Shown piece after piece: positions 5,491-56,499 of a DNA stretch of 64,000 nucleotides. The stretch spans positions 15,996-79,995 of the forward strand of contig CBDFKY010000022.1 of assembly GCA_965248995.1 (NCBI GenBank), written 5' to 3'. Source of the DNA: Rickettsiales bacterium (GTDB taxonomy: Bacteria > Pseudomonadota > Alphaproteobacteria > Rickettsiales > UBA998). The position numbers and the translations under genes are program-made. The first letter of the stretch is position 1, and each line of letters starts with the position of its first letter. Below the pieces are notes generated by a model that was not told the DNA's origin, made no database searches, and saw only the letters and a list, made by a program, of their open reading frames with translations.

Positions 5491-5610
5491 AATGCAGCGC
5501 AGGCAAACTGGGAGCTTGAAAGTTATTGTTTTAGTGGAAAAAAACCATTGAGCTTCTGGACGGCTGATCCTCCGCAGACTCTACCATTATGCGCTATACT
5601 TCCACTATAG
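5458..5610 (+). pseudogene. Remnant ORF: duplicated 5' end of the 6010-6555 secreted-protein gene, terminated inside repeat element copy 1
   Basis: MKKLFASPLCS... matches MKKFFVGLLCS... of the intact gene only over about 12 codons. The TAG stop at 5608-5610 lies within the first bases of the 117-bp element. Confidence 0.4.
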
Positions 5611-5722
5611 TCATTCCGATTAAAAACCGTACGGTTTTTGTTGGATAAAATGACTATAACCATATATTTTATAGTGTTTTTATCCGAAAATTTCCGTACG
5701 GAAATTATTCGGAAACACTATA
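5606..5722. repeat. 117-bp double-hairpin MITE-like element, copy 1
   Basis: About 92% identical to 9488-9604. It is built from two extended imperfect palindromes (tatagtcatt...aatgactata and tatagtgttt...aaacactata, each enclosing a ccg-tacgg-centred hairpin). Termini are TATAGT...ACTATA. Confidence 0.8.
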
Positions 5723-5727
5723 ACGAT

Positions 5728-5928
5728 GTGTATATTCGAAATAAAATCATCACTATCCCCATGATTTATGATATCGCCCTGTTTCAACAAAAATACGGTG
5801 CGAAGTTCGAGGGGGCAAGCGGGCATGACGTGATCGATGCCAGCAAGGCGATTTCCGGGGCGATCGACCTGCGTGACAGGTTCAATGCCGACAACAAGCT
5901 GCATTTCTCCGGAGTCGGGGGAAAAGTA
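5728..5928 (+). pseudogene. Internal fragment of a second serralysin-like metalloprotease paralog
   Basis: The translation VYIRNKIITIPMIYDIALFQQKYGAKFEGASGHDVIDASKAISGAIDLRDRFNADNKLHFSGVGGKV parallels residues of the 6552-9245 protein (MYVQNKILTTPMVYDIALLQQKYGAHFDG...GASGHDVIDASSAISATIDLRDGFNPDNTPHFSRVGGEV). It lacks the HExxH region, the N-terminus and the RTX part. Confidence 0.7.
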
Positions 5929-6009
5929 CGCTCTTGCGATGTCATAAAACCTTCACATTCGCCTTTCTTGAGCGTGCTAATTTGTTCATTCATTGATTTT
6001 GAGGTATCC

Positions 6010-6555
6010 ATGAAGAAATTTTTTGTAGGCCTGCTCTGCTCTGCATTGCTTTGCTCTGGCGCGGCGAAGGCATATCATCCATTGGAAGTAGGTTGTACCG
6101 TGGAAGAAAAATCAGGTGCGTACTGGGTGAACAATTCTTCAAGAGTAGATACGATTTTTATAGGAAAAGTTATTAGTGTGGATGCAACCGTCATGGATTG
6201 GCCGGAGGATGGTTCGTGCTGGGGAAATTTCTCCGTTTTGGAAGTGTTGAAAGGTAATATAGGCAAAAGGATTTCTGTTAAAATTGCTTATGATCCTGCT
6301 GAAAAAGCGAAAAAAAGAATTAATCCGGAGGGACTGAAGACGGTGGATTACTGCCCATTTGCCTATGGAAAAACTTACGTGGTATATGGACTGCATATAA
6401 AAGATTCACCAGATGTCGGTATGAATGACTGGATAGTAAGCAATTCCAATGCAGGAAACTCGCATTTCAACTGTGCGCCCACCAAAGAAATTCGAGATTC
6501 CGAAACATCCAAAACAAGCGGTAAGATTCGAAATCTGTTAAAGAAAGGAAAATGA
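6010..6555 (+). CDS. Small secreted protein with a TIMP/NTR-like OB-fold pattern; candidate cognate protease inhibitor
   Basis: Signal peptide MKKFFVGLLCSALLCSGAAKA. The stop overlaps the protease start (aaATGAccatg, with the ATG at 6552 and the TGA at 6553-6555). The pattern GC-x(17)-VDTIFIGKVISV...FSVLEVLKGNIGKRISVKI...DYCPFAYGKTYVVYGLH...HFNCAP resembles TIMP/netrin-module proteins. Confidence 0.7.
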   Translation: MKKFFVGLLCSALLCSGAAKAYHPLEVGCTVEEKSGAYWVNNSSRVDTIFIGKVISVDATVMDWPEDGSCWGNFSVLEVLKGNIGKRISVKIAYDPAEKAKKRINPEGLKTVDYCPFAYGKTYVVYGLHIKDSPDVGMNDWIVSNSNAGNSHFNCAPTKEIRDSETSKTSGKIRNLLKKGK

Positions 6556-9487: not shown

Positions 9488-9604
9488 TATAGTCATTCCG
9501 ATTAAAAACCGTACGGTTTTAATCGGATAAAATGACTATAACCATATAATTTATAGTGTTTTTAACCGAAAATTTTCGTACGAAAATTATTCGGAAACAC
9601 TATA
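9488..9604. repeat. 117-bp double-hairpin MITE-like element, copy 2
   Basis: Same length and architecture as 5606-5722. It contains the near-perfect palindrome ccgattaaaaaccgtacggttttaatcgg. Its last 18 nt supply the final codons and the TAA stop of ORF 9587-10183. Confidence 0.8.
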
Positions 9605-10183
9605 ATCAATAAACCACACCCCCTTTTTATCTTTTTTTGTAATTTTACTTAAAAGTTCTTTTTCATCTTCCCAAAGATTATTTTCATTCCACAAACGCTT
9701 ATCTTTTCGATATTTTTTGAGTGCTTTCTTACTAATAATGATGCGAGGGTGAATAGCAGAGGTATTTTCAAATATATAAGCTTCAACGAGTGCAGGACCG
9801 AAAATGGGCCCATTCAAATTTCGGCCAACATGCATTTCACCTATTGTTAGAGCGCCTCGAATTAAAATATTTTGCTTTATACATGCTATTTGCAAGTTCA
9901 ATAAAATTAATAGTTCCCATCCAAAAGCTCCTGTAAAACATTCTGTTCCAATGGTTCGAAATCTAACAATAGCGTCTGAGATTATTTCAGATCCCGCAGC
10001 AGTGTAAAGCCTTCGTTCACTAAAACTAGTTTTCGAATCCTTCAGCGTAGGCTTAGAAAAACCTCGAAATCTTTTTAAAATTTCCGCAATTTTTTTAGCT
10101 GATGATGAATCTAATAAATCTTTAAATCCTAAAATATCTATAAACGTGACGATGCATTCTTCATAAGTTGAATCATATTTCAA
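9587..10183 (-). CDS. Class III nucleotidyl cyclase-like (palm-domain) protein, probably truncated by element insertion
   Basis: Motif order matches adenylyl/guanylyl cyclase catalytic domains. IVTFIDILGFKDLL compares with vlFaDivGFT (first metal Asp). SEIISDAIVRF carries the second Asp. IRGALTIGEMHVG compares with lRiGihtGpvvaG. PIFGPALVEAYIFEN compares with dvwGdtVNlAsRlEs. The gene is very AT-rich. It starts at a TTG 12 nt after the purU stop, and its C-terminal codons YSVSE-stop come from the repeat element. Confidence 0.6.
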   Translation of the reverse strand: MKYDSTYEECIVTFIDILGFKDLLDSSSAKKIAEILKRFRGFSKPTLKDSKTSFSERRLYTAAGSEIISDAIVRFRTIGTECFTGAFGWELLILLNLQIACIKQNILIRGALTIGEMHVGRNLNGPIFGPALVEAYIFENTSAIHPRIIISKKALKKYRKDKRLWNENNLWEDEKELLSKITKKDKKGVWFIDYSVSE

Positions 10184-13821: not shown

Positions 13822-14298
13822 CTAAGGTTCGTCAATGATGACGAGGACTCCATCTACAACATCCGCGTTCAGGGCTTCAGACAGTAAGCTCAGGAACCAC
13901 TCACGCGGTTCCAAAAGCTCTACCAGATCCGCGTCCGTTGCAGGGCGACGGGTCAGAATTTCTCCAACCGATTGACCCTCTTCATCGCGGACCTTGATGG
14001 AGCCTAGAACGTGGCGACGTTCCGTAGAAAGATGCTCGACGGGGGTTTCCAACACTAACACTCCCACATCGCTACTAATAGCATAAGAGGGTGCCGCTTG
14101 AAGATCGTCGAGTGGCTGAGCTATGGTCAATCTGGCAACCTCAAGACCAATTAGCTCCAACATAATGGGATAAATGGTGATAAGGTTACCATTTTGAAGA
14201 AGCAATTTCGCATCCCCGATTTCCACGTCATCATCTTCTATCGTAATCGTAACAGGATTAGGCAACAGTTGTTGCTCTTGAGCATCTGGTGTAGACAT
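13822..14298 (-). CDS. Strongly acidic hypothetical protein (158 aa)
   Basis: ORF in a lower-GC segment abutting the IS element. It has about 30 Asp/Glu against about 9 Lys/Arg. No recognisable motif. Confidence 0.5.
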   Translation of the reverse strand: MSTPDAQEQQLLPNPVTITIEDDDVEIGDAKLLLQNGNLITIYPIMLELIGLEVARLTIAQPLDDLQAAPSYAISSDVGVLVLETPVEHLSTERRHVLGSIKVRDEEGQSVGEILTRRPATDADLVELLEPREWFLSLLSEALNADVVDGVLVIIDEP

Positions 14299-14410
14299 AA
14301 GCGAAGTACACAGTAATGGAACATTCTAAAAACGAAGTTTTAGACTTCCAAAATCTCTCAACTAAAATTTATAGTTAATTCAAAATTTACACGGATGATT
14401 GTATTATGTT

Positions 14411-14731
14411 ATGATGAGTCATAGCATGGATTTACGGCGTCGCGTTGTTGCGTATGTCAGGGGCGGTGGAAGTAAGGCGGAAGCTGCCCGTCGGTTTGGG
14501 GTACACCATGGGTGTGTGTTTGATTGGATCACGCGTGATCGGTTGGAAGCGAAGAAACCGGGTCCGCGCAAGGCGCATAAACTGGACATAGAAGCACTGC
14601 AACAGGCGGTGGAATGTCAACCTGAGGTAATGGGTAAGGAACTGGCGGTACACTTTGGGGTAAGGCCGAGTACGATCTGCTATGCGCTGAAGCGGTTGAA
14701 CATCAGTCGTAAAAAAAACCTGGACGTATAA
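14411..14731 (+). CDS. IS630-family transposase, N-terminal HTH part (orfA)
   Basis: SMDLRRRVVAYVRGGGSKAEAARRFGVHHGCVFDWI is typical of IS630/Tc1 N-terminal HTH regions. The ORF ends just after an A8 run at 14711-14718. Confidence 0.75.
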   Translation: MMSHSMDLRRRVVAYVRGGGSKAEAARRFGVHHGCVFDWITRDRLEAKKPGPRKAHKLDIEALQQAVECQPEVMGKELAVHFGVRPSTICYALKRLNISRKKNLDV

Positions 14732-14786
14732 AGAAAGCGACAACGAGAAACGCAAAGCGTACCTCAAGCGCTGGTGGCGTTACCGG

Positions 14787-15242
14787 ATGCAGGGCAAGCA
14801 GTTTGTGTATGTCGATGAAAGCGCCTTCGCACCCACCGCCGAACGCACGCATGGCTTCGCCCGAAAAGGCAAGCGTGTGCATGGGCAACGCAGCGGGCAG
14901 CGCAGACCCCGCACCAGTTTCCTGGCAGCCTTGTGCGGCAAGCAAATGCTTGCCCCCTTCCTCTTTCAGGGTACCTGCAACACTGCCGTTTTTAATGCTT
15001 GGCTAGAGCAGGAACTCTGCCCGCATCTTACCCCTAACAGCGTTGTCATTATGGACAACGCCACCTTCCATAAATCTACTTTAACACAACAGCTTATTCA
15101 GCAACGACAGGCAACGCTATTGTTCCTGCCTCCCTATTCTCCCGATCTCAATCCTATCGAAAAACGTTTCGGCACCATCAAACGATACCGATCCTACACA
15201 CCAGAAATATCCCTCAATCTTCTCATTCAAACATACGGATAA
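14787..15242 (+). CDS. IS630-family transposase, DDE catalytic part (orfB; the frame is open from about 14709)
   Basis: FVYVDESAF, VVIMDNATFHKS and LPPYSPDLNPIEKRF form the DDE triad. The frame is +1 relative to orfA, and reading KKTWTYKESDNEKRKAYLKRWW across the A8 run joins the two parts. Confidence 0.75.
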   Translation: MQGKQFVYVDESAFAPTAERTHGFARKGKRVHGQRSGQRRPRTSFLAALCGKQMLAPFLFQGTCNTAVFNAWLEQELCPHLTPNSVVIMDNATFHKSTLTQQLIQQRQATLLFLPPYSPDLNPIEKRFGTIKRYRSYTPEISLNLLIQTYG

Positions 15243-15326: not shown

Positions 15327-15482
15327 CTATTGCGGATTCCCGTAAAAATCTTCCTCTTCATCTCCCTGTGCGTCTTTAGGCCGGTTCCCCTGAATGTCGG
15401 TATCCGTCGGGTTGCCGTGGATATCTGTCTGTACGCCGGGGGACTGAATGGATGCGGTGTCGGTTTCCTGCGGGTCGGCCAT
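15327..15482 (-). CDS. Possible 51-aa acidic small protein
   Basis: The ATG at 15482 is preceded by a good RBS (cacAGGAGaacctcATG). The sequence is MADPQETDTASIQSPGVQTDIHGNPTDTDIQGNRPKDAQGDEEEDFYGNPQ. There is no homology evidence. Confidence 0.3.
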   Translation of the reverse strand: MADPQETDTASIQSPGVQTDIHGNPTDTDIQGNRPKDAQGDEEEDFYGNPQ

Positions 15483-15571
15483 GAGGTTCTCCTGTGAGGG
15501 GGTTGAATGATAAAGCGTGTATTGAATGAATGACATGGTATGCTGAGGACGTCAAAAACAAGTCCGCACGC

Positions 15572-16924
15572 ATGAATCCATACCGTTTCCTTACCCAACA
15601 GATCAAAATCGCCATGCCCAAGAGCCTGTTCGCCCGGGCGCTGCTGATCCTGACGGTGCCGACGATCCTGGCGCAATGCCTGGCGCTTACCGTCTTTTAC
15701 GACCGTCACTGGGACAGCATCGAGCGGCATCTGTCCTCGTCGCTGGCCGGGGAGGTGGCGATCATGACGGACCGCGCCATGCGCCTGCCGCTGGCGGAGC
15801 GGGGAAATTCCCTGCGTATGTACGGAGCGATGATGAATATGCGGATTCACCTGCTTCCCCGGCAGGCCCTCCATGCAAGCGCCGACCAGGCGCGGTTCAC
15901 GCGCTACGCTGCGGAACTGGGAAAGCGTCTGGAAGTGCCTTTCAGTATCTATTATCCGAGGCCGGACAGTGAGACCATCCGCACCGAACTGAGCCTGCCC
16001 GACCAGATATTGCAGATCGATGTCGGCAATAAACGGCTGGAGAGCTCCACCACCACCATTTTCGTCTTGTGGGTAGTCGGTTCCGCCGCCGTCTTCACCC
16101 TGATCGCTATTCTGTTCCTGCGTAACCAGGTGCGCCCGATCACCCGGCTGGCGGAAGCGGCGGACCGGTTCGGGCGCGGGCAGGATGTCGGCAGTTTCAG
16201 GCCGCACGGGGCGGAAGAAGTGCGCACCGCCGGGCGGGCCTTCATGGTGATGCGCGCCCGCATCACCCGGCAGGTCTCGACGCGGGTGGCGATGCTCACC
16301 GGCGTGTCCCACGACCTGCGCACGCCGCTTACCCGCCTGAAACTGCAGCTGGCGATGCAGCGGGAAACGGACGATATCCGCGCCATGCGTCAGGATGTCG
16401 ACGAAATGGAGCACATGCTCAACGAATATCTGGAATTCGCGCGCGGGAACGACGAATCCATCCCGACCGAGGAAGTAGACATGGCCGACTGGCTGCGCAG
16501 CATCATCCAGTCCTACCTGGCGGCGGGCGCGGCGATAACCTACACCATTCCCGACACGGTGGAACTGCCGATCCGCCCGATGCAGCTGCGAAGAGCCGCC
16601 CAGAACGTCATCACCAACGCCCTGAAATACGGCGAACGCTGCCACGTGGCGCTGGATATCACCGGCGGCTGGCTCTCGCTCGGCGTGGAGGACGAGGGGC
16701 CGGGCATCCCGGAAGCGGCGATGGAAGAGGTGTTCCGCCCCTTTACGCGTCTGGAACAATCCCGCAACCGCGAGACCGGGGGCGTCGGGCTCGGGCTCGC
16801 CATCACCCGCGACATCGTCCAGGCGCATGGCGGCAAGATCACTATGCGCAACCGGTATGATGCTGAAGGGAAGATCAAAGGGCTGAACGTGGTGATCCTG
16901 CTGCCGGTTCCGTCGCGTTCTTAG
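15572..16924 (+). CDS. EnvZ-like two-component sensor histidine kinase
   Basis: Two TM segments, a HAMP-like region, a HisKA H-box (GVSHDLRTPLTRLKLQL), an N-box (NVITNALKYG), G1 (VEDEGPGIP) and G2 (GGVGLGLAI). The start is ambiguous (15572 or 15614). No response regulator gene is adjacent. Confidence 0.85.
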   Translation: MNPYRFLTQQIKIAMPKSLFARALLILTVPTILAQCLALTVFYDRHWDSIERHLSSSLAGEVAIMTDRAMRLPLAERGNSLRMYGAMMNMRIHLLPRQALHASADQARFTRYAAELGKRLEVPFSIYYPRPDSETIRTELSLPDQILQIDVGNKRLESSTTTIFVLWVVGSAAVFTLIAILFLRNQVRPITRLAEAADRFGRGQDVGSFRPHGAEEVRTAGRAFMVMRARITRQVSTRVAMLTGVSHDLRTPLTRLKLQLAMQRETDDIRAMRQDVDEMEHMLNEYLEFARGNDESIPTEEVDMADWLRSIIQSYLAAGAAITYTIPDTVELPIRPMQLRRAAQNVITNALKYGERCHVALDITGGWLSLGVEDEGPGIPEAAMEEVFRPFTRLEQSRNRETGGVGLGLAITRDIVQAHGGKITMRNRYDAEGKIKGLNVVILLPVPSRS

Positions 16925-17100
16925 TTTCCCCGTGCCGTTTAAAAAATAAAGATTGTTTATACCTCAAGAAAATCCTGCCGCTTGACAGGGAAATTCGAAA
17001 AAATGATTTTGCTTCAATTCGGTTCGTATGTTACCGATGTGAATATGTAAAACGCTATGATATTCCTTTGTAATTTTGACATCCTAAGTGAAGGTTTAAT

Positions 17101-17796
17101 ATGCCAAGATACTCAAAAAACCGCCCCAACCAACTCTATGATGCTATTCCTGAAGAGGGATCCATAGGCAACATAAAGCTTAGGAACTCCCTGGAATGGC
17201 CGCCGGAACTCTATGAACGCGTTAAAACCGAACTTTTAGAGGAAAGACGCATCATTGAATCCCGCGAAACGAGAGGCGGACAGCTGAGCCGTGTTTTGAC
17301 GTTTAATAATACTGCTGAAATTCTTCCTTTCAAGGAAACTTCGATTGAAGAAAAACGTGCCAACATATTTATCGTTCATGGCCATAGCGACGCAAAATAT
17401 GATGTTAAAGAATTTTTGAAGGAGATGGGGCTGAACCCTGTTATCCTTCATGAACAGGCAAATGAAGGGCATACTCTCATCAGTAAGTTTGAGGAACATT
17501 CTGAAAGCTGTAAGTTCGCCATTGTGATTATGACGCCCGACGATGAAGGAAAAGCCAAGGACGACTCGACATTAAAATTCAGGGCCCGTCAAAACGTTAT
17601 TTTTGAGTTAGGGTTTTTTATCGGAAAACTGGGGATGCAGAAGGTTGTCGCCTTAGTAAAAAATAATGTTGAAAGACCATCGGATTATGATGGTGTTCTC
17701 TATATCGATTATGACAATGGCGTAGGATGGAAAATACAATTAGGCAGAGAATTAAAAAAGGCCGGATATAAAATTGATCTGAACCGGATTTGTTAA
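17101..17796 (+). CDS. wHTH plus TIR-like nucleotide-binding domain protein (Cap12/Pycsar-effector-type TIR-like, COG4271-like)
   Basis: The C-terminal 145 aa follow the TIR-like family pattern as I recall it: IFIVHGHSD...EFLKEMGLNPVILHEQANEGHTLISKFEEH...FAIVIMTPDD...FRARQNVIFELGFFIGKLGMQKVVALVKNNVERPSDYDGVLYIDYD...W...LGRELKKAGYKIDL. The N-terminal 85 aa look like a winged helix. The gene is AT-rich between GC-rich neighbours. Confidence 0.8.
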   Translation: MPRYSKNRPNQLYDAIPEEGSIGNIKLRNSLEWPPELYERVKTELLEERRIIESRETRGGQLSRVLTFNNTAEILPFKETSIEEKRANIFIVHGHSDAKYDVKEFLKEMGLNPVILHEQANEGHTLISKFEEHSESCKFAIVIMTPDDEGKAKDDSTLKFRARQNVIFELGFFIGKLGMQKVVALVKNNVERPSDYDGVLYIDYDNGVGWKIQLGRELKKAGYKIDLNRIC

Positions 17797-17808
17797 TCCG
17801 TTTATCGT

Positions 17809-19086
17809 ATGATCGACTGGTATGAATCCGGCCTGCCGCATATCTGGCAGCCTTACGCACAGGCGCAGACCGCGCCGCTGCCCCTGCCCGTATCGCACAC
17901 GCAGGGATGCCATATCGTACTCGGCGACGGGCGGCGGCTGATTGACGGGATCAGTTCGTGGTGGAGCGCCTGCCACGGCCATAACCATCCGCATCTGGTC
18001 GCGGCGGCCAGAAAACAGCTCGACATCATGCCGCACGTGATGTTTGCCGGGTTGGCGCACGAACCCGCTTTCACGCTGGCCCGGCGGCTCTCGACGCTTG
18101 CTTCGCAGGAAGGGCAGGCGCCGCTCGCGCGGGTGTTTTTTTCGGACTCCGGTTCCACTTCCGTGGAAGTGGCGCTGAAAATTGCCCTGCAATATTGGGT
18201 TAATAAAGGCGTGGCGGGAAAAACCCGGTTCGCCTGCTTAGAGCACGCCTATCACGGCGATACGTTCGGAGCGATGGGGGTCAGTGACCCGGCGCGGGGG
18301 ATGCACGCCGCCTACCTGCCCAATCTGGTGGAAGCGGCTGCTTATCCCGTACCCCGCACGGAAGCGGAAAAAGCCGCGTTCGCCGTACGGTTCGCTTTCG
18401 AAGCCCCGCATCTGGCCGCCCTGATCGTCGAGCCCCTGGTGCAGGGGGCAGGAGGAATGCGGTTCTATGATGCGGCCGACGTACGTTTCATGGCGGATCT
18501 GTGCGTGACCCACGACGTCCTGCTGATCGCCGACGAGATCATGACCGGTTTCGGGCGCACGGGAGGGATGTTCGCCTGTCATGAGGCGGGTATCACACCG
18601 GATATCCTGTGTATCGGCAAAGGGTTGACGGGCGGCATGATGACGCTGGCGGCCACGCTTGTCCGGGAATCCGTCTATGAGGCGTTCCTGAGCGACTCCC
18701 GCGCCCACGCCCTGATGCACGGCCCGACCTTCATGGCCAACCCACTCGCCTGCGCGGTGGCGAACGCTTCGCTGGATCTGTTCGAGAGCGAGCCCCGGCT
18801 GGCGCAGGTGCGGGCCATCGAGATTCAATTGCGTGAGGCGCTGATGCCGTTGGCGGGCCATCCCGCCGTAGTGGACGTCCGTGTCAAAGGGGCGATCGGC
18901 GTGGTGCAATGCGACCCGCTTCGCTTCGATCCGTTCGCACTGCGACCACTCCTTTTGGAAAAGGGATGCTGGCTGAGGCCTTACGGGGACATCCTCTACC
19001 TTATGCCGCCGTTTATCATTTCACCGGAGGAATTACGTGTGTTAACGGACGCGGTGAGGGAAACGGTAGAAAAACTGGGAACGTGA
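17809..19086 (+). CDS. bioA: Adenosylmethionine-8-amino-7-oxononanoate aminotransferase
   Basis: HIWQPYAQ, SSWWSACHGHNHP, LIADEIMTGFGRTG and the class III aminotransferase layout. Length 425 aa. Confidence 0.92.
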   Translation: MIDWYESGLPHIWQPYAQAQTAPLPLPVSHTQGCHIVLGDGRRLIDGISSWWSACHGHNHPHLVAAARKQLDIMPHVMFAGLAHEPAFTLARRLSTLASQEGQAPLARVFFSDSGSTSVEVALKIALQYWVNKGVAGKTRFACLEHAYHGDTFGAMGVSDPARGMHAAYLPNLVEAAAYPVPRTEAEKAAFAVRFAFEAPHLAALIVEPLVQGAGGMRFYDAADVRFMADLCVTHDVLLIADEIMTGFGRTGGMFACHEAGITPDILCIGKGLTGGMMTLAATLVRESVYEAFLSDSRAHALMHGPTFMANPLACAVANASLDLFESEPRLAQVRAIEIQLREALMPLAGHPAVVDVRVKGAIGVVQCDPLRFDPFALRPLLLEKGCWLRPYGDILYLMPPFIISPEELRVLTDAVRETVEKLGT

Positions 19087-19154: not shown

Positions 19155-19622
19155 ATGAATATAACCACACTTTTGGAGGCAATCCATGTACTGCATGCAT
19201 TGCCGGATTCGGAGAAGGAAAAGCTTGCCCTACTGAAAGCGTTTGAAGCTTTTAACATACTGTTTATGGCTATGTTAAGGCATCAGGACGCTTTGAGGGG
19301 CAATGTGGTCGCCGCGGAAAACATACGGTTTTTACGAACCCTGTCTTTCAGCGGAAAAGCCAGCATCCACCATTGGACATTGCAAGTGGCACCTGATACC
19401 CAGGCGCTGCTCTTGTACGGATTGAAGCAATTCGAAACATGGCGGGCTTCCGGCATGGACGAAAATCACGATTTTTTCCGCCTCCATAAGGAGATGCTGA
19501 ACACGCTTCCATGCATCAAATTCTTCGACAAAGCGGTGGAAATGGAATATTTCACACAGCGTTTTCCGGATCATTTTGTCAATCCAGCCAGAATGAGCTT
19601 GACTCCCATCACGGATTACTGA
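19155..19622 (+). CDS. Hypothetical protein (155 aa)
   Basis: ORF in a lower-GC segment, followed directly by a hairpin plus T-run terminator. No recognisable motif. Confidence 0.5.
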   Translation: MNITTLLEAIHVLHALPDSEKEKLALLKAFEAFNILFMAMLRHQDALRGNVVAAENIRFLRTLSFSGKASIHHWTLQVAPDTQALLLYGLKQFETWRASGMDENHDFFRLHKEMLNTLPCIKFFDKAVEMEYFTQRFPDHFVNPARMSLTPITDY

Positions 19623-22568: not shown

Positions 22569-23015
22569 TCAAAGCGCCAGACTGGATGCTTTTCCTGCGC
22601 TTTTAGCGGGAGCGGGTACATGTTTATCTTCGGGAGAATGAACAATCCGGCTTGTGACCTCGGGAAGATTCGCACCTTTAAGCAAGTCCGTATGTTTCCC
22701 GGCAGCCCCTTTTGTCTTGGGTTCGGACAGCTCATCACTTTCAAGATGAGTTGGTGAAACGACAACGGTCTGCTCTAAGAACTTTTCTTTTACCGCTTCA
22801 ACGCGCTTCTCGATAATTTTCTGCTCTGCCTCCGTAGGAGCCTCAAAAATGGTCTCAACCCCGCGTTTACTAAACATGGTGCCCTTGGTGGGAATGCCAA
22901 GTTCAATTTCGGTATCTATGACGGTTTTTCTGACAATTTGATCAAGCTCGGGAGAGTTCAGTCTTTCGTGGCGTACAGCTTCCTCTGCATTGACGCTATC
23001 TATCGCCTTCTTCAT
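22569..23015 (-). CDS. Hypothetical protein (148 aa)
   Basis: ORF in an AT-rich segment between polA and nadD. A further 36-codon ORF (MADPKDSSQNPIEKGDW...) lies just upstream on the same strand, so a disrupted larger gene is possible. Confidence 0.4.
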   Translation of the reverse strand: MKKAIDSVNAEEAVRHERLNSPELDQIVRKTVIDTEIELGIPTKGTMFSKRGVETIFEAPTEAEQKIIEKRVEAVKEKFLEQTVVVSPTHLESDELSEPKTKGAAGKHTDLLKGANLPEVTSRIVHSPEDKHVPAPAKSAGKASSLAL

Positions 23016-53343: not shown

Positions 53344-53802
53344 CTACGAACGACCATCTCTACCGCTCCGCTCTTGCGATGGTTCTGGAAGAGTTAACAC
53401 ACCTTGTTGTGCTGATTCAACTGCATATCCTATACTTTTATTGAAATTTTTAACAAATTCAGGATCAATTAATTCTGCAGTAGCAGCTTTGGTAATGGCA
53501 TCTTGGAACCGTGTTTTTGTCAATCTTTCATTTGTTGCGTGCCCATGAACTACGATCGTTCGATCATTAGAAGAAATATGGACGGGATCATTTGCTGGAT
53601 AATCTACAGGATATGTGCTTATTCCATCCTTAATTGCTTTTGCAATCTCTTCAGCCACGGCTTTATGACCTGTTTGAATTTCCATGATTACATGTGAATC
53701 TGGAAAACTAATATCGGGTTTAATGGTAACTTTAAGATTATCTATGCCCTTTCTTCCATTATCTAAAATTGCTTCAGCTCCATCAAATTGAGTGCTAGCC
53801 AT
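53344..53802 (-). CDS. Hypothetical protein in an AT-rich islet (152 aa)
   Basis: ORF filling the AT-rich gap between gltX and rlmB. No motif recognised. Confidence 0.45.
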   Translation of the reverse strand: MASTQFDGAEAILDNGRKGIDNLKVTIKPDISFPDSHVIMEIQTGHKAVAEEIAKAIKDGISTYPVDYPANDPVHISSNDRTIVVHGHATNERLTKTRFQDAITKAATAELIDPEFVKNFNKSIGYAVESAQQGVLTLPEPSQERSGRDGRS

Positions 53803-55572: not shown

Positions 55573-56499
55573 TTATCCGAGTGCCGCACTGACAGACATG
55601 TTTGCGGGCTCACCGGAGACACGTTCTGCCCACTTCTGTTTTGCAGATTGTTGCGTGATTCCAAGAGAAGCGCTTTTTGCTTTATGGGAATATACGAACC
55701 ACGCCGCCGTAACTCCTACGGTGGCTAAGACGGTGGCGGCAACCGCCATCTTTCCCTTACCTGTCAATGCGCCTTCGTGATAAAGCGCTTGCAGCAATCC
55801 GTTGCCCGCCTTTTGTGTCGCCTGTTCCGCCGTCGATTCGGCAGCGGCAGGCGGCGTATGCGCGACTGCTTCAGCTATGGGCGCGACCGCTTTTTGAAAT
55901 AACCTGTCCGATGTTCTGTTCTGCCATTGCTGAGTAGCCGGATCAAACGTGATGAATGTAGGGGTTCCGGACCGTTGCGCTTCCTGTAGATGTGCTAGCG
56001 CTTCGGGAGGAATAAGCTCACTGACCGCTTTCATACCTTCAGGAGTTCCGAATGCGGTGGTGATAGGTTGGGCACCGTACTTGTCCCATATCGGGATGAC
56101 ATGTTCTTCATGAAGCTTTCTAAGCCCTTCTTTGTCAAGAAACGGGATGGATTCAAGTGTGCCAGGCTCGGTACTAACGAATCCGTGCATCCGAGAAGGG
56201 GTACGACTATTCGTCTGATCCCGTGCATAATGGATGACATCTTCACGAGTAGTCAAATGTAGAAAATCTTCAGGGGATTGAGCATAAGATCCAGTGTACC
56301 AACGCTTACCATCAAATCCTAAAGCATGAGTAATTCCTTCCGGGTTTTTCTCAAGACTATTTTCCCTATACAAGCTGCCGAACATGCCCCCAAATGTTTC
56401 GCGAATGGACTGGGTCGCCTCTCCGGCATCGGGCACTATCCATTCCCAGTAATCCCGTGCTTTGATTCTCCCGTGACTGATATGCGCCCAATCCACCAA
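55573..56499 (-). CDS. Hypothetical tail-anchored membrane protein (308 aa)
   Basis: A single predicted TM near the C-terminus (MAVAATVLATVGVTAAWFVY) follows a ~250-aa soluble domain. No motif recognised. GC is lower than the flanks. Confidence 0.5.
   Translation of the reverse strand: MVDWAHISHGRIKARDYWEWIVPDAGEATQSIRETFGGMFGSLYRENSLEKNPEGITHALGFDGKRWYTGSYAQSPEDFLHLTTREDVIHYARDQTNSRTPSRMHGFVSTEPGTLESIPFLDKEGLRKLHEEHVIPIWDKYGAQPITTAFGTPEGMKAVSELIPPEALAHLQEAQRSGTPTFITFDPATQQWQNRTSDRLFQKAVAPIAEAVAHTPPAAAESTAEQATQKAGNGLLQALYHEGALTGKGKMAVAATVLATVGVTAAWFVYSHKAKSASLGITQQSAKQKWAERVSGEPANMSVSAALG

What the first reader, a model, noticed from the sequence alone, without database searches (positions are those of the whole stretch)
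16925..17808. Single-gene AT-rich islet encoding a wHTH plus TIR-like (Cap12/Pycsar-effector-type) protein 12 bp upstream of bioA
The 231-aa product has a C-terminal domain that follows the TIR-like nucleotide-binding family found in CBASS Cap12 and Pycsar TIR effectors (IFIVHGHSD, PVILHEQ, TPDD, RARQNVIFELGFFIGKLG, PSDYDGVLYI). The N-terminal ~85 aa look like a winged helix. The gene and its upstream region are conspicuously AT-rich, and they are inserted between a GC-rich histidine kinase gene and bioA. No cyclase, CD-NTase or other partner is adjacent. TIR-like proteins of this type are NAD+-degrading or related effectors in known defence systems, so a solo wHTH-TIR-like gene may be a one-gene sensor-effector. 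Because it sits so close to bioA on the same strand, it may also read through into biotin synthesis.
Basis: partly seen in the sequence, partly recalled or inferred. Interest (0 to 1): 0.6.

Follow-up and report, generated by a model that had tools for sequence, protein, structure and literature searches.

The report
Solo winged-helix–TIR candidate phage-defence gene
A small, recently imported gene wedged in front of a biotin-synthesis gene encodes a DNA-binding-type "winged helix" fused to a TIR enzyme of the kind bacteria use to destroy NAD+ during phage attack. It is most likely a rare variant of a one-protein immune sensor-killer, but none of this has been tested experimentally.

Summary
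ORF 17101..17796 (+, 231 aa) fills an 884-bp low-GC islet (GC 0.40, GC3 0.42) between a histidine kinase gene and bioA (GC3 0.75-0.81).

- **TIR domain.** Residues 88-206 match Pfam PF10137 (CAP12/Pycsar TIR) at E=1.8e-40. Residues 76-230 match PADLOC's untested single-gene candidate PDC-S35 at E=4e-68. R163, N165 and E169 align with SfSTING R78, N80 and catalytic E84. The model's best fold matches are TIR-STING structures.
- **Winged helix.** Residues 4-67 have canonical winged-helix topology (pLDDT 84). They belong to a roughly 63-aa module that gave no Pfam hit in this protein. The module occurs in about 800 protein clusters, in 1-6 tandem copies. It is fused to TIR, SIR2, GmrSD and restriction-type domains, and most often to a domain with a PD-ExK-like motif.
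- **No partner.** No cyclase or other partner gene is present.
- **Not conserved at this locus.** In the closest relative (kinase 87% identical), homology stops at the kinase stop codon and a different AT-rich gene follows.

Best reading: a horizontally acquired one-gene sensor-effector, a new N-terminal variant of a known candidate family, working like SpbK or TIR-STING through trigger-induced TIR clustering. Enzyme activity, phage protection and read-through into bioA all remain untested. Interest is moderate.

The parts
16925..17100 (.). AT-rich upstream spacer (GC 0.34) between the kinase stop codon and the gene. It carries the Shine-Dalgarno sequence GAAGG at 17090-17094.
   Evidence: The consensus scan found no promoter on the + strand here. 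No credible small partner ORF is present.
17101..17796 (+). wHTH-TIR gene, 231 aa, intact.
   Evidence: GC3 is 0.42. The protein is a singleton cluster, and its next-best homologue is 46% identical.
17110..17301 (+). Winged-helix module, residues 4-67 (H1-b1-H2-H3-b2-wing-b3). The wing keeps the family's R-G-G motif.
   Evidence: A profile search found 800 clusters carrying the module. AF2 gave pLDDT 84. Foldseek hits were all winged helices, with TM 0.53-0.71.
17302..17361 (+). Low-confidence linker, residues 68-87.
   Evidence: pLDDT is below 50 at residues 61-72 and 76-82 in the full-length model. This region is not alignable among homologues.
17362..17793 (+). TIR domain of the CAP12/Pycsar clade. 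The Pfam match covers residues 88-206, and a conserved C-terminal helix region extends to residue 231.
   Evidence: PF10137 E=1.8e-40. PDC-S35 E=4e-68 over residues 76-230. pLDDT is mostly above 90. The top Foldseek hits are TIR-STING 9lmq and 7un8.
17581..17613 (+). Active-site motif RARQNVIFELG (residues 161-171). The E169 codon is GAG at 17605-17607. R163 and N165 are the putative NAD+ contacts.
   Evidence: The motif is invariant in the family alignments. It aligns with SfSTING R78, N80 and E84 (residue roles from PMC9402430).
17785..17808 (+). Gene end and 12-nt spacer to bioA. A weak hairpin (17785-17800) overlaps the stop codon.
   Evidence: One search lists it as terminator-like. Its folding energy is not better than shuffled sequence (z = -0.9).
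15530..16924 (+). Context: native EnvZ-like histidine kinase gene, forming the left border of the islet.
   Evidence: An orthologue 87% identical occurs in L088, and nucleotide homology ends at window position 16911.
17809..19086 (+). Context: bioA (class-III aminotransferase), forming the right border of the islet. It has no Shine-Dalgarno sequence of its own.
   Evidence: Homologues cover residues 1-425.

Best explanation
This is a horizontally acquired, stand-alone immune gene. One polypeptide joins an N-terminal winged-helix module to a C-terminal TIR domain of the CAP12/Pycsar clade. The winged helix is the proposed sensor and the TIR domain the proposed NAD+-cleaving effector.

Proposed mechanism (inferred, not shown):
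1. In uninfected cells the protein is monomeric or dimeric and inactive.
2. During infection the winged helix binds an invader cue. Foreign nucleic acid is the most likely cue, given the module's other fusion partners. A multimeric phage protein is also possible.
3. Several copies are brought side by side on that scaffold.
4. TIR-TIR packing completes composite active sites around E169, R163 and N165.
5. NAD+ is degraded, and the infected cell stops supporting phage growth (abortive infection).

Shown here: domain identities, conserved catalytic residues, the solo state of the gene, foreign composition, absence from the same spot in the nearest relative, and the module's recurrent fusion to defence effectors.

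Inferred: NADase activity, the nature of the trigger, clustering, and any protective effect.
For: - **TIR identity.** PF10137 matched at E=1.8e-40. PADLOC PDC-S35 matched at E=4e-68, with PycTIR and CBASS TIR effector models weaker. The TIR fold has pLDDT above 90 and its best matches are TIR-STING filament structures.
- **Active site.** R163, N165 and E169 align with SfSTING R78, N80 and E84 (PMC9402430) and are invariant in 67 homologues.
- **Winged helix.** The topology is canonical.
- **Module distribution.** The module occurs in 800 clusters, in 1-6 tandem N-terminal copies. It is fused to ThsB-like TIR, SAVED-TIR-like, PF10137 TIR, SIR2 (Dsr1/ThsA-like), GmrSD_N, LmuA, NsnA, type I methyltransferase/restriction and helicase domains. 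Most often (59 of 101) it is fused to a domain with invariant E...PD...ExK residues.
- **Variable N-termini.** The 106 closest TIR homologues carry N-termini that fall into 15 unrelated classes on a conserved TIR. This is the pattern expected of swappable sensors.
- **Mobile and defence contexts of family members.**
  - Solo low-GC islet: P0003, which has the same architecture.
  - Defence island.
  - Next to ParDE.
  - Next to an integrase.
  - 1172 plasmids.
  - 203 viral contigs.
- **Foreign origin.** GC3 is 0.42 against about 0.78 in the neighbours. The gene is not present after the kinase in the nearest relative.
- **Precedent.** SpbK is a one-gene protein (N-terminal domain, linker, TIR) activated by trigger-induced TIR clustering (PMC12847820).
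Against: - No experiment exists for this protein, and none was found for PDC-S35.
- This protein has only one winged helix, whereas many relatives have arrays of them. The module could bind protein rather than nucleic acid, or act as an autorepressor.
- Foldseek E-values for the small winged helix are weak (0.03-0.2). The module gave no Pfam hit in this protein and no significant PDB sequence hit.
- The gene is not in a defence island here. None of the other 12 low-GC ORFs scanned in the window matches PADLOC.
- No promoter was identified.
- The right-hand end of the insertion could not be checked, because the relative's contig ends before bioA.
Confidence: 0.6

Rival explanations
1. The effector is the same, but the winged helix has a different role. 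It acts as a transcriptional autorepressor or chromosome anchor that keeps the toxic TIR at a low level or inactive. The trigger then acts elsewhere, for example on the TIR domain or linker, or through loss of repression, as in toxin-antitoxin-like control.
For: - Winged helices of the MarR/ArsR type are classical repressors, and these are the best fold matches.
- The gene has its own 176-bp AT-rich upstream region.
- Some relatives on plasmids have a small overlapping upstream ORF instead of a fused N-terminal domain, which suggests separate regulators exist in the family.
Against: - Arrays of up to six copies of the module, fused to nucleases, TIR and SIR2 domains, fit target recognition better than autoregulation.
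- No palindromic operator stands out in the upstream spacer.
- The module sits on the same polypeptide as the effector in nearly all cases.
Confidence: 0.2
2. The TIR domain is a signal producer rather than an NAD+ depleter, as in Thoeris. It would make a cADPR-type or related molecule for an effector encoded elsewhere in the genome.
For: - Bacterial TIRs can make signalling nucleotides (PMC12847820 introduction).
- SpbK itself makes N1-cADPR in addition to ADPR.
Against: - The domain belongs to the CAP12/Pycsar clade, whose studied members are NAD+-depleting effectors.
- A systematic Thoeris survey explicitly set aside stand-alone TIRs.
- No ThsA-like, SLOG or macro-domain partner was found among the ORFs scanned.
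Confidence: 0.07
3. This is not a defence gene. It could be a selfish toxin or addiction gene, an inert passenger of horizontal transfer, or a regulator that has been co-opted to drive or control bioA.
For: - The gene sits 12 nt upstream of bioA on the same strand, with no convincing terminator and no Shine-Dalgarno sequence for bioA.
- This genome carries many low-GC ORFans of unknown role.
- The gene is not in a defence island.
Against: - The ORF is intact and keeps every invariant family residue.
- None of the 80 bioA loci examined from other genomes has a TIR gene nearby.
- In relatives, bioA follows unrelated genes: purQ in one case and a different ORFan in another.
- The family is spread across plasmids, prophages and defence islands.
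Confidence: 0.1

Closest known systems
PADLOC phage-defence candidate PDC-S35 (single-gene PF10137 'nucleotide-binding protein' family)
   Same: The TIR domain plus the conserved C-terminal helix region (residues 76-230) match all five PDC-S35 models at E=1e-43 to 4e-68. The gene is single, small (231-300 aa) and found in mobile contexts.
   Different: The N-terminal 70-120 positions of the PDC-S35 models are not matched. Here that region is replaced by a winged-helix module seen in only three protein clusters combined with this TIR as a single copy. PDC-S35 is itself only a computational candidate, and no experimental report was found.
CBASS Cap12 / TIR-STING (SfSTING, PDB 7UN8; 9LMQ)
   Same: The TIR clade is the same (PF10137). 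These are the best sequence and fold matches among solved structures. The catalytic E84 and the NAD+-contact residues R78 and N80 are conserved. Activation by oligomerisation is the likely shared principle.
   Different: There is no STING or SAVED cyclic-nucleotide sensor and no CD-NTase operon. The NCBIfam Cap12 equivalog scores 55 bits against a 450-bit cut-off. The input must therefore be something other than a cyclic nucleotide made by a partner enzyme.
SpbK of Bacillus subtilis ICEBs1 (one-gene TIR abortive-infection protein)
   Same: The layout and size are the same: a small N-terminal recognition domain, a flexible linker and a C-terminal TIR (266 aa against 231 aa). SpbK is a single sufficient gene on a mobile element, with TIR assemblies that resemble TIR-STING. 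It is activated when a multimeric phage trigger clusters the N-terminal domains (PMC12847820).
   Different: Sequence relatedness was not tested because no SpbK sequence was at hand, and no SpbK chain appeared among the PDB matches. SpbK's N-terminal domain docks on a portal protein. Here the N-terminus is a winged helix whose relatives are fused mainly to nuclease-like domains, which points to nucleic acid as the ligand.
Pycsar PycTIR and SPARTA TIR-APAZ
   Same: These are TIR NADase effectors triggered by oligomerisation. PycTIR matches at E=3.5e-13 on the TIR region. SPARTA TIR is the next-best fold match after TIR-STING, and SPARTA is activated by nucleic-acid recognition.
   Different: There is no cyclase partner, no Argonaute and no APAZ domain. 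Recognition would be by a protein winged helix rather than by a guide RNA.

Membership tests
Pfam PF10137 CAP12/Pycsar-effector TIR domain | Profile match above the curated gathering score | tested here: met
   138.1 bits against a cut-off of 24.7, E=1.8e-40, residues 88-206 covering profile positions 1-119 of 119.
Pfam PF10137 CAP12/Pycsar-effector TIR domain | TIR (flavodoxin-like) fold with the catalytic Glu on helix alpha-C and the Arg/Asn NAD+ contacts | tested here: met
   The AF2 TIR region mostly has pLDDT above 90. The top Foldseek hits are 9lmq and 7un8 TIR-STING. R163, N165 and E169 align with SfSTING R78, N80 and E84 and are invariant in 67 sequences.
Pfam PF10137 CAP12/Pycsar-effector TIR domain | NAD+ glycohydrolase activity dependent on self-association | not testable with these tools
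   This needs an enzyme assay of wild type and E169A, with and without oligomerising conditions.
CBASS Cap12 (TIR-STING / TIR-SAVED effector) | Equivalog-level match and a C-terminal cyclic-nucleotide sensor domain | tested here: not met
   NF050171 scored 55 bits and NF050172 39 bits, against cut-offs of 450. The only non-TIR domain is an N-terminal winged helix.
CBASS Cap12 (TIR-STING / TIR-SAVED effector) | Operon with a CD-NTase | tested here: not met
   The neighbours are a histidine kinase, bioA, an ORFan and polA. No CD-NTase or SMODS model was hit by any of the 64 window ORFs scanned.
Pycsar PycTIR | Adjacent pyrimidine cyclase (PycC) | tested here: not met
   No cyclase family was hit among the window ORFs scanned. 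The PycTIR model matches only the TIR region, at E=3.5e-13.
PADLOC PDC-S35 (candidate single-gene system) | Match to the PDC-S35 protein models | tested here: inconclusive
   The match is strong (E=4e-68) but covers only about 56-69% of each model, at the C-terminal end. The model N-termini are unmatched. PADLOC's own coverage rule was not applied.
PADLOC PDC-S35 (candidate single-gene system) | Demonstrated anti-phage activity | not testable with these tools
   No paper in the library mentions PDC-S35. Other PDC-S candidates have been tested, but not this one.
Thoeris ThsB | ThsB-type TIR with an adjacent ThsA-type effector | tested here: not met
   No PF08937 or ThsB hit was found for this protein. 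No ThsA, SLOG or macro-domain partner was found among the ORFs scanned.
Winged helix-turn-helix fold | H1-b1-H2-H3-b2-wing-b3 topology | tested here: met
   The AF2 model built on 72 domain instances has pLDDT 84, with elements H8-15, E21-23, H24-31, H35-47, E51-54 and E61-64. All top Foldseek hits are winged helices (MarR, ZitR, ArsR, Z-alpha, ESCRT-II) with TM 0.53-0.71.
Winged helix-turn-helix fold | Membership of a curated wHTH family | tested here: not met
   This protein gave no Pfam, NCBIfam or PADLOC hit on residues 1-75. Multi-copy relatives give only sub-threshold hits per repeat to HTH_67, HTH_24, AlkZ-rel and GntR. The PDB profile search gave E of 0.1 or worse.
SpbK-like one-gene TIR abortive-infection proteins | N-terminal recognition domain, flexible linker, C-terminal TIR, single sufficient gene | tested here: met
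   Domain layout comes, and the solo state of the gene. This shows the architecture only. Sufficiency for defence is untested.
SpbK-like one-gene TIR abortive-infection proteins | Sequence homology to SpbK and activation by a phage structural protein | not tested

The most novel reading that the evidence does not exclude
The roughly 63-aa winged-helix module would be a previously undescribed, portable nucleic-acid pattern sensor of prokaryotic immunity. Single or tandem copies would line up on invader DNA or RNA and so template the side-by-side packing that switches on TIR and SIR2 NADases, or position the nuclease partners. That would be DNA-templated activation of a TIR enzyme by a protein-only reader, with no guide RNA, second messenger or NTPase. 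A further possibility is that the TIR domain, tethered to nucleic acid by the winged helix, acts on the nucleic acid itself rather than on free NAD+.
Probability: 0.25. Interest if true: 0.7.

Novelty: new variant of a known kind. Interest (0 to 1): 0.42.

Why it matters
**Effector and sensor.** TIR NADases of this clade are known as the killing arm of CBASS, Pycsar and TIR-STING, where a partner enzyme supplies the signal. Stand-alone versions are abundant: more than 7,800 homologues, 1,172 plasmids and 203 viral contigs. They are usually set aside in surveys and remain untested. This gene shows that the same effector can be wired directly to a winged-helix reader.

**If the module is an invader sensor.** It would define a simple one-protein route from nucleic-acid recognition to NAD+ depletion. 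It would also give a handle for annotating several hundred unannotated defence proteins.

**Local effect.** The insertion sits directly in front of bioA, so an imported immune gene may have taken over the transcription signals of a vitamin-synthesis gene.

Tried and rejected
- **Cap12 or PycTIR membership.** Rejected. The equivalog scores are far below cut-off, and there is no sensor domain or cyclase.
- **SLOG or TIR_2 assignment.** No SLOG hit appeared, and TIR_2 was below threshold.
- **Z-alpha (Z-DNA-binding) reading of the winged helix.** Z-alpha appears among the weak sequence and fold hits. By hand alignment, the human ADAR1 Z-alpha contact residues, recalled from memory as N173 and Y177, fall on E39 and T43 here. 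Rejected, on the basis of my own inspection only.
- **Mobile-element scars.** No direct or inverted repeats flank the islet, and no repeats are shared with other islets.
- **Small upstream partner ORF.** Enterobacterial plasmids have one. None is credible in the 176-bp spacer here, and the plasmid ORF is not a winged helix.
- **BioR-type operator in front of bioA.** None was seen by eye in 17760-17810. The consensus was recalled from memory.
- **Intrinsic terminator between the gene and bioA.** The hairpin at 17785-17800 is no more stable than shuffled sequence.
- **Promoter.** The scan found no + strand site upstream of the gene. The one + strand site inside its 3' end (17711-17740) is within chance expectation.
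- **Synteny test in GTDB representative genomes.** The best bioA identity is only 59%, the kinase-bioA linkage is absent, and no TIR gene lies near bioA in any of the 80 loci.
- **The window's own contig.** It could not be retrieved.
- **IMG/VR contig L110.** It seemed to match the full length of the protein but has an unrelated N-terminus.
- **The module's main partner domain.** A PDB profile search for the E..PD..ExK domain found nothing.
- **The afdb50 fold library.** It was unavailable.
Full report
**Observation**

The ORF is real. GAAGG lies 6 nt upstream of the ATG. The preceding gene (15530..16924) is a HAMP/HisKA/HATPase_c histidine kinase. The following gene (17809..19086) is a class-III aminotransferase of the bioA type, starting 12 nt after the TAA stop.

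The 884 bp between them have GC 0.399, and the 176-bp upstream spacer has 0.341, against 0.568 for the whole window. Only about 1% of windows of that size are as AT-rich. The gene's GC3 is 0.42, against 0.81 for the kinase, 0.75 for bioA and 0.79 for polA.

This genome has roughly ten such low-GC islets in 64 kb. The islet is therefore striking against its neighbours but is not a unique feature of this genome.

**C-terminal domain**

- Residues 88-206 match Pfam PF10137 (CAP12/Pycsar-effector TIR) over the full profile at E=1.8e-40. TIR_2 is sub-threshold and no SLOG family appears.
- PADLOC's five models for the single-gene candidate PDC-S35 match residues 76-230 at E=1e-43 to 4e-68. This is far better than the CBASS TIR-effector and PycTIR models, which score 1e-13 to 1e-17.
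- The NCBIfam Cap12 equivalogs score 55 and 39 bits against cut-offs of 450, so the protein is not Cap12.
- Among solved structures, the best sequence matches are the TIR-STING proteins 9LMQ and 7UN8. Our RARQNVIFELG aligns with their PRDNVVFEFG.
- In SfSTING, R78 and N80 contact NAD+ and E84 is the catalytic residue (PMC9402430). With the eight-residue offset of the deposited chain, these correspond to R163, N165 and E169 here. All three are invariant in alignments of 15 and 67 homologues.
- An AlphaFold2 model has pLDDT mostly above 90 across the TIR domain. Its best Foldseek matches in the PDB are TIR-STING filaments (E down to 2e-7), followed by SPARTA TIR-APAZ.

**N-terminal domain**

Across the more than 7,800 homologues, the TIR domain is 44-60% identical while the N-termini are unrelated. 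Among the 106 closest homologues with at least 50 N-terminal residues, these regions form 15 unrelated classes. The window's type is shared with only two other proteins, P0002 and P0003.

A profile of those three N-termini was searched against 1.84 billion representative proteins. It found 800 proteins at E of 1e-3 or better and 86 at 1e-10 or better. The unit is about 63 aa (residues 4-67 here). Its consensus is LL..VP.DGS.IGN..LR..LGWD...Y..VR..L...G.I..G.GRGGSV.R. It occurs in one to six tandem copies, almost always at the N-terminus.

This protein gave no Pfam, NCBIfam or PADLOC hit on that region. Multi-copy relatives collect only sub-threshold per-repeat hits to wHTH families such as HTH_67, HTH_24, AlkZ-rel, EAP30 and GntR.

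An AlphaFold2 model built on 72 domain instances has pLDDT 84 and the canonical H1-b1-H2-H3-b2-wing-b3 order. Every top Foldseek hit is a winged helix (MarR, ZitR, MexR, SarZ, ArsR, TubR, Z-alpha, ESCRT-II), with TM 0.53-0.71 and rmsd mostly 1.2-3 Å. E-values are weak for so small a domain. The winged-helix call is therefore correct. Residues 68-87 are a low-confidence linker.

**What the module is attached to elsewhere**

Among 146 representatives, recognisable partners are almost all defence or restriction domains:
- ThsB-like TIR (10 proteins)
- SAVED-TIR-like (7)
- PF10137 / PDC-S35 / PycTIR-like TIR (3)
- SIR2 of the Dsr1 or ThsA type
- GmrSD_N, LmuA, NsnA and PD-T4-2_A
- type I methyltransferase and HsdM_N, type II restriction enzyme, helicases and HNH

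Clustering of the regions downstream of the last module shows one dominant partner, in 59 of 101 proteins. It is a roughly 200-aa domain with invariant E, PD and ExK residues. By established knowledge this is the signature of PD-(D/E)xK nucleases. I could not confirm it by profile or structure, because the PDB profile search found nothing.

One "stand-alone" two-module protein turned out to sit directly upstream of a further module-TIR gene.

The picture is of a portable N-terminal reader placed on nuclease, TIR and SIR2 effectors. That argues for a recognition role, most simply nucleic-acid binding. Multi-wHTH DNA readers on restriction enzymes are a known theme (PMC10853773).

**Genomic context and origin**

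No partner gene is adjacent. I scanned 51 larger ORFs and 13 low-GC ORFs of the window against PADLOC. This found no CD-NTase, SMODS or cyclase, and no other low-GC ORF matched anything. The spacer holds no credible small ORF. No flanking repeats or target duplications were found.

The genome has no close relative in the databases:
- The TIR protein, bioA, kinase and orf155 are all singleton clusters at 90% identity.
- The best bioA in 185,579 species genomes is 59% identical.
- None of the 80 loci retrieved has a TIR gene or the kinase next to bioA.

The protein database gave somewhat closer relatives.
- **L088 (kinase 87% identical, ENA contig).** It keeps the upstream order decarboxylase-ORF-kinase. 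Nucleotide homology stops at window position 16911, which lies in the last codons of the kinase. A different AT-rich gene follows, encoding an RHH protein with a PutA_1st-like domain, and then the contig ends.
- **L090 (bioA 78% identical).** bioA is preceded by a different low-GC 217-aa ORFan.
- **L091 (bioA 69% identical).** bioA follows purQ by 12 nt.

The TIR gene is therefore not a conserved resident of this locus. Both of its borders are places where relatives carry other accessory genes. The full "empty site" could not be seen.

P0003 is one of the only two proteins with the same architecture. It is likewise a solo low-GC islet (GC 0.37-0.43 against about 0.55), lying between ribonucleotide reductase and hisD.

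Other family members sit in varied mobile or defence settings:
- in a defence island after a methyltransferase
- next to ParDE
- next to an integrase, with a SMODS gene nearby
- on 1,172 plasmids
- on 203 IMG/VR contigs and a few cultured phages

**Mechanism**

The best-supported reading is a one-gene sensor-effector. Two points are established for relatives:
- TIR NADases of this clade are inactive until packed side by side. The active site is completed across a TIR-TIR interface (PMC9402430).
- A single protein with an N-terminal recognition domain, a linker and a TIR can be a sufficient anti-phage system. In SpbK the phage portal clusters the N-terminal domains and thereby the TIRs (PMC12847820).

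By analogy, the winged helix here would bind a multivalent invader cue, several molecules would be concentrated, and NAD+ would be degraded through E169. Nucleic acid is my preferred cue because of the nuclease partners.

The following steps are inferred and not shown: NADase activity, the ligand, clustering and protection. I put this at 0.6.

The main rival (0.2) keeps the effector but makes the winged helix an autorepressor or anchor. A Thoeris-like signalling role (0.07) and a non-defence role (0.1) are less likely, for the reasons listed under the rival explanations.

**bioA read-through**

The 12-nt gap, the lack of a Shine-Dalgarno sequence for bioA and the absence of a hairpin more stable than chance (z = -0.9) make co-transcription plausible. 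A promoter-like site inside the gene's 3' end (17711-17740) is within chance expectation. Nothing here tests the idea, so it stays open.

**Comparison and novelty**

The protein is a member of the PF10137 TIR family. By its TIR domain it belongs to PADLOC's PDC-S35 candidate group. It is not Cap12, PycTIR or ThsB. It works most like SpbK or TIR-STING.

Two things are new:
- The N-terminal variant. A single winged helix combined with this TIR is seen in only three protein clusters.
- The recognition that this winged helix belongs to a widespread, uncurated, often tandem module shared by many defence effectors.

I found no paper describing either. This is a new variant of a known kind. It is of moderate interest to specialists and would be testable with simple assays.

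Noticed in passing
window 5638-6555, 9587-10183, 13822-14298, 19155-19622, 22569-23015, 53344-53802, 55573-56499: About ten low-GC, low-GC3 ORFs (GC3 0.20-0.57 against about 0.75 for core genes) are scattered singly between housekeeping genes. Most have no Pfam hit and none has a PADLOC hit. orf155, directly downstream of bioA, is one of them, so bioA is flanked by foreign-looking genes on both sides.
   Followed up: partly
window 5606-5723 and 9488-9605: A 118-nt direct repeat (94% identical) brackets a roughly 3.9-kb segment. The segment holds a low-GC 305-aa ORFan and an 897-aa RTX/haemolysin-type calcium-binding protein. Further internal repeats link the ORFan region to the RTX gene (5812-5927/7218-7333 and 5451-5490/6003-6042).
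   Followed up: no
window 14399-15242: An IS630-family transposase is split into two ORFs (HTH_Tnp_IS630 at 14399-14731 and DDE_3 at 14787-15242), about 2 kb upstream of the islet. The closest relative (L088) lacks it and has a Trypsin_2 peptidase gene before the kinase instead. A 140-nt stretch (15328-15467) is conserved between the two genomes.
   Followed up: partly
L088 9354-9567: In the nearest relative (kinase 87% identical), the kinase is followed by an AT-rich gene for a ribbon-helix-helix protein (PutA_1st RHH, E=1.3e-8). This looks antitoxin- or regulator-like. The contig ends after 53 codons.
   Followed up: partly
L090 1091-1744: In a relative whose bioA is 78% identical, a different low-GC (0.36-0.38) 217-aa ORFan with no Pfam hit sits between a ClpB-like gene and bioA. 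The position upstream of bioA therefore looks like a recurrent landing site in this lineage.
   Followed up: partly
proteins P0135, P0138, P0143 and 56 others (alignment A7): The commonest architecture of the winged-helix module is two copies followed by a roughly 200-aa domain with invariant E...PD...ExK residues. This is presumably a PD-(D/E)xK nuclease. At least the members P0135 and P0197 that were scanned individually gave no Pfam hit, and the domain profile has no PDB sequence match.
   Followed up: partly
L094 3262-4441; L095 3283-4462: IncF-type plasmids of Klebsiella (617 records) and E. coli (368 records) carry a conserved two-gene cassette. It consists of a 96-aa ORF overlapping a 299-aa PF10137 'nucleotide-binding protein' by 11 nt. 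The cassette lies near VapBC and a P-loop NTPase gene. The small ORF is not a winged helix.
   Followed up: partly
L082 1507-2265: A protein with two winged-helix modules and a PF10137 TIR (P0137) is followed by a metallo-beta-lactamase-fold gene. That gene has a weak hit to the anti-Pycsar Apyc1 family. The contig is only 3.5 kb.
   Followed up: no
L081, L089, L090: Three contigs come from one JGI metagenome (sample 3300083026) and have similar backbone GC. They carry P0003 (the closest protein with the same architecture), a kinase 73% identical and a bioA 78% identical. A relative of this organism may therefore carry a diverged wHTH-TIR gene at a different locus.
   Followed up: no
L091 6988-7001: In a relative whose bioA is 69% identical (GCA_028279475.1), bioA starts 12 nt after purQ. 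This is the same tight spacing as in the window, where bioA starts 12 nt after the TIR gene. bioA in this lineage may habitually rely on transcription from whatever gene lies upstream.
   Followed up: no
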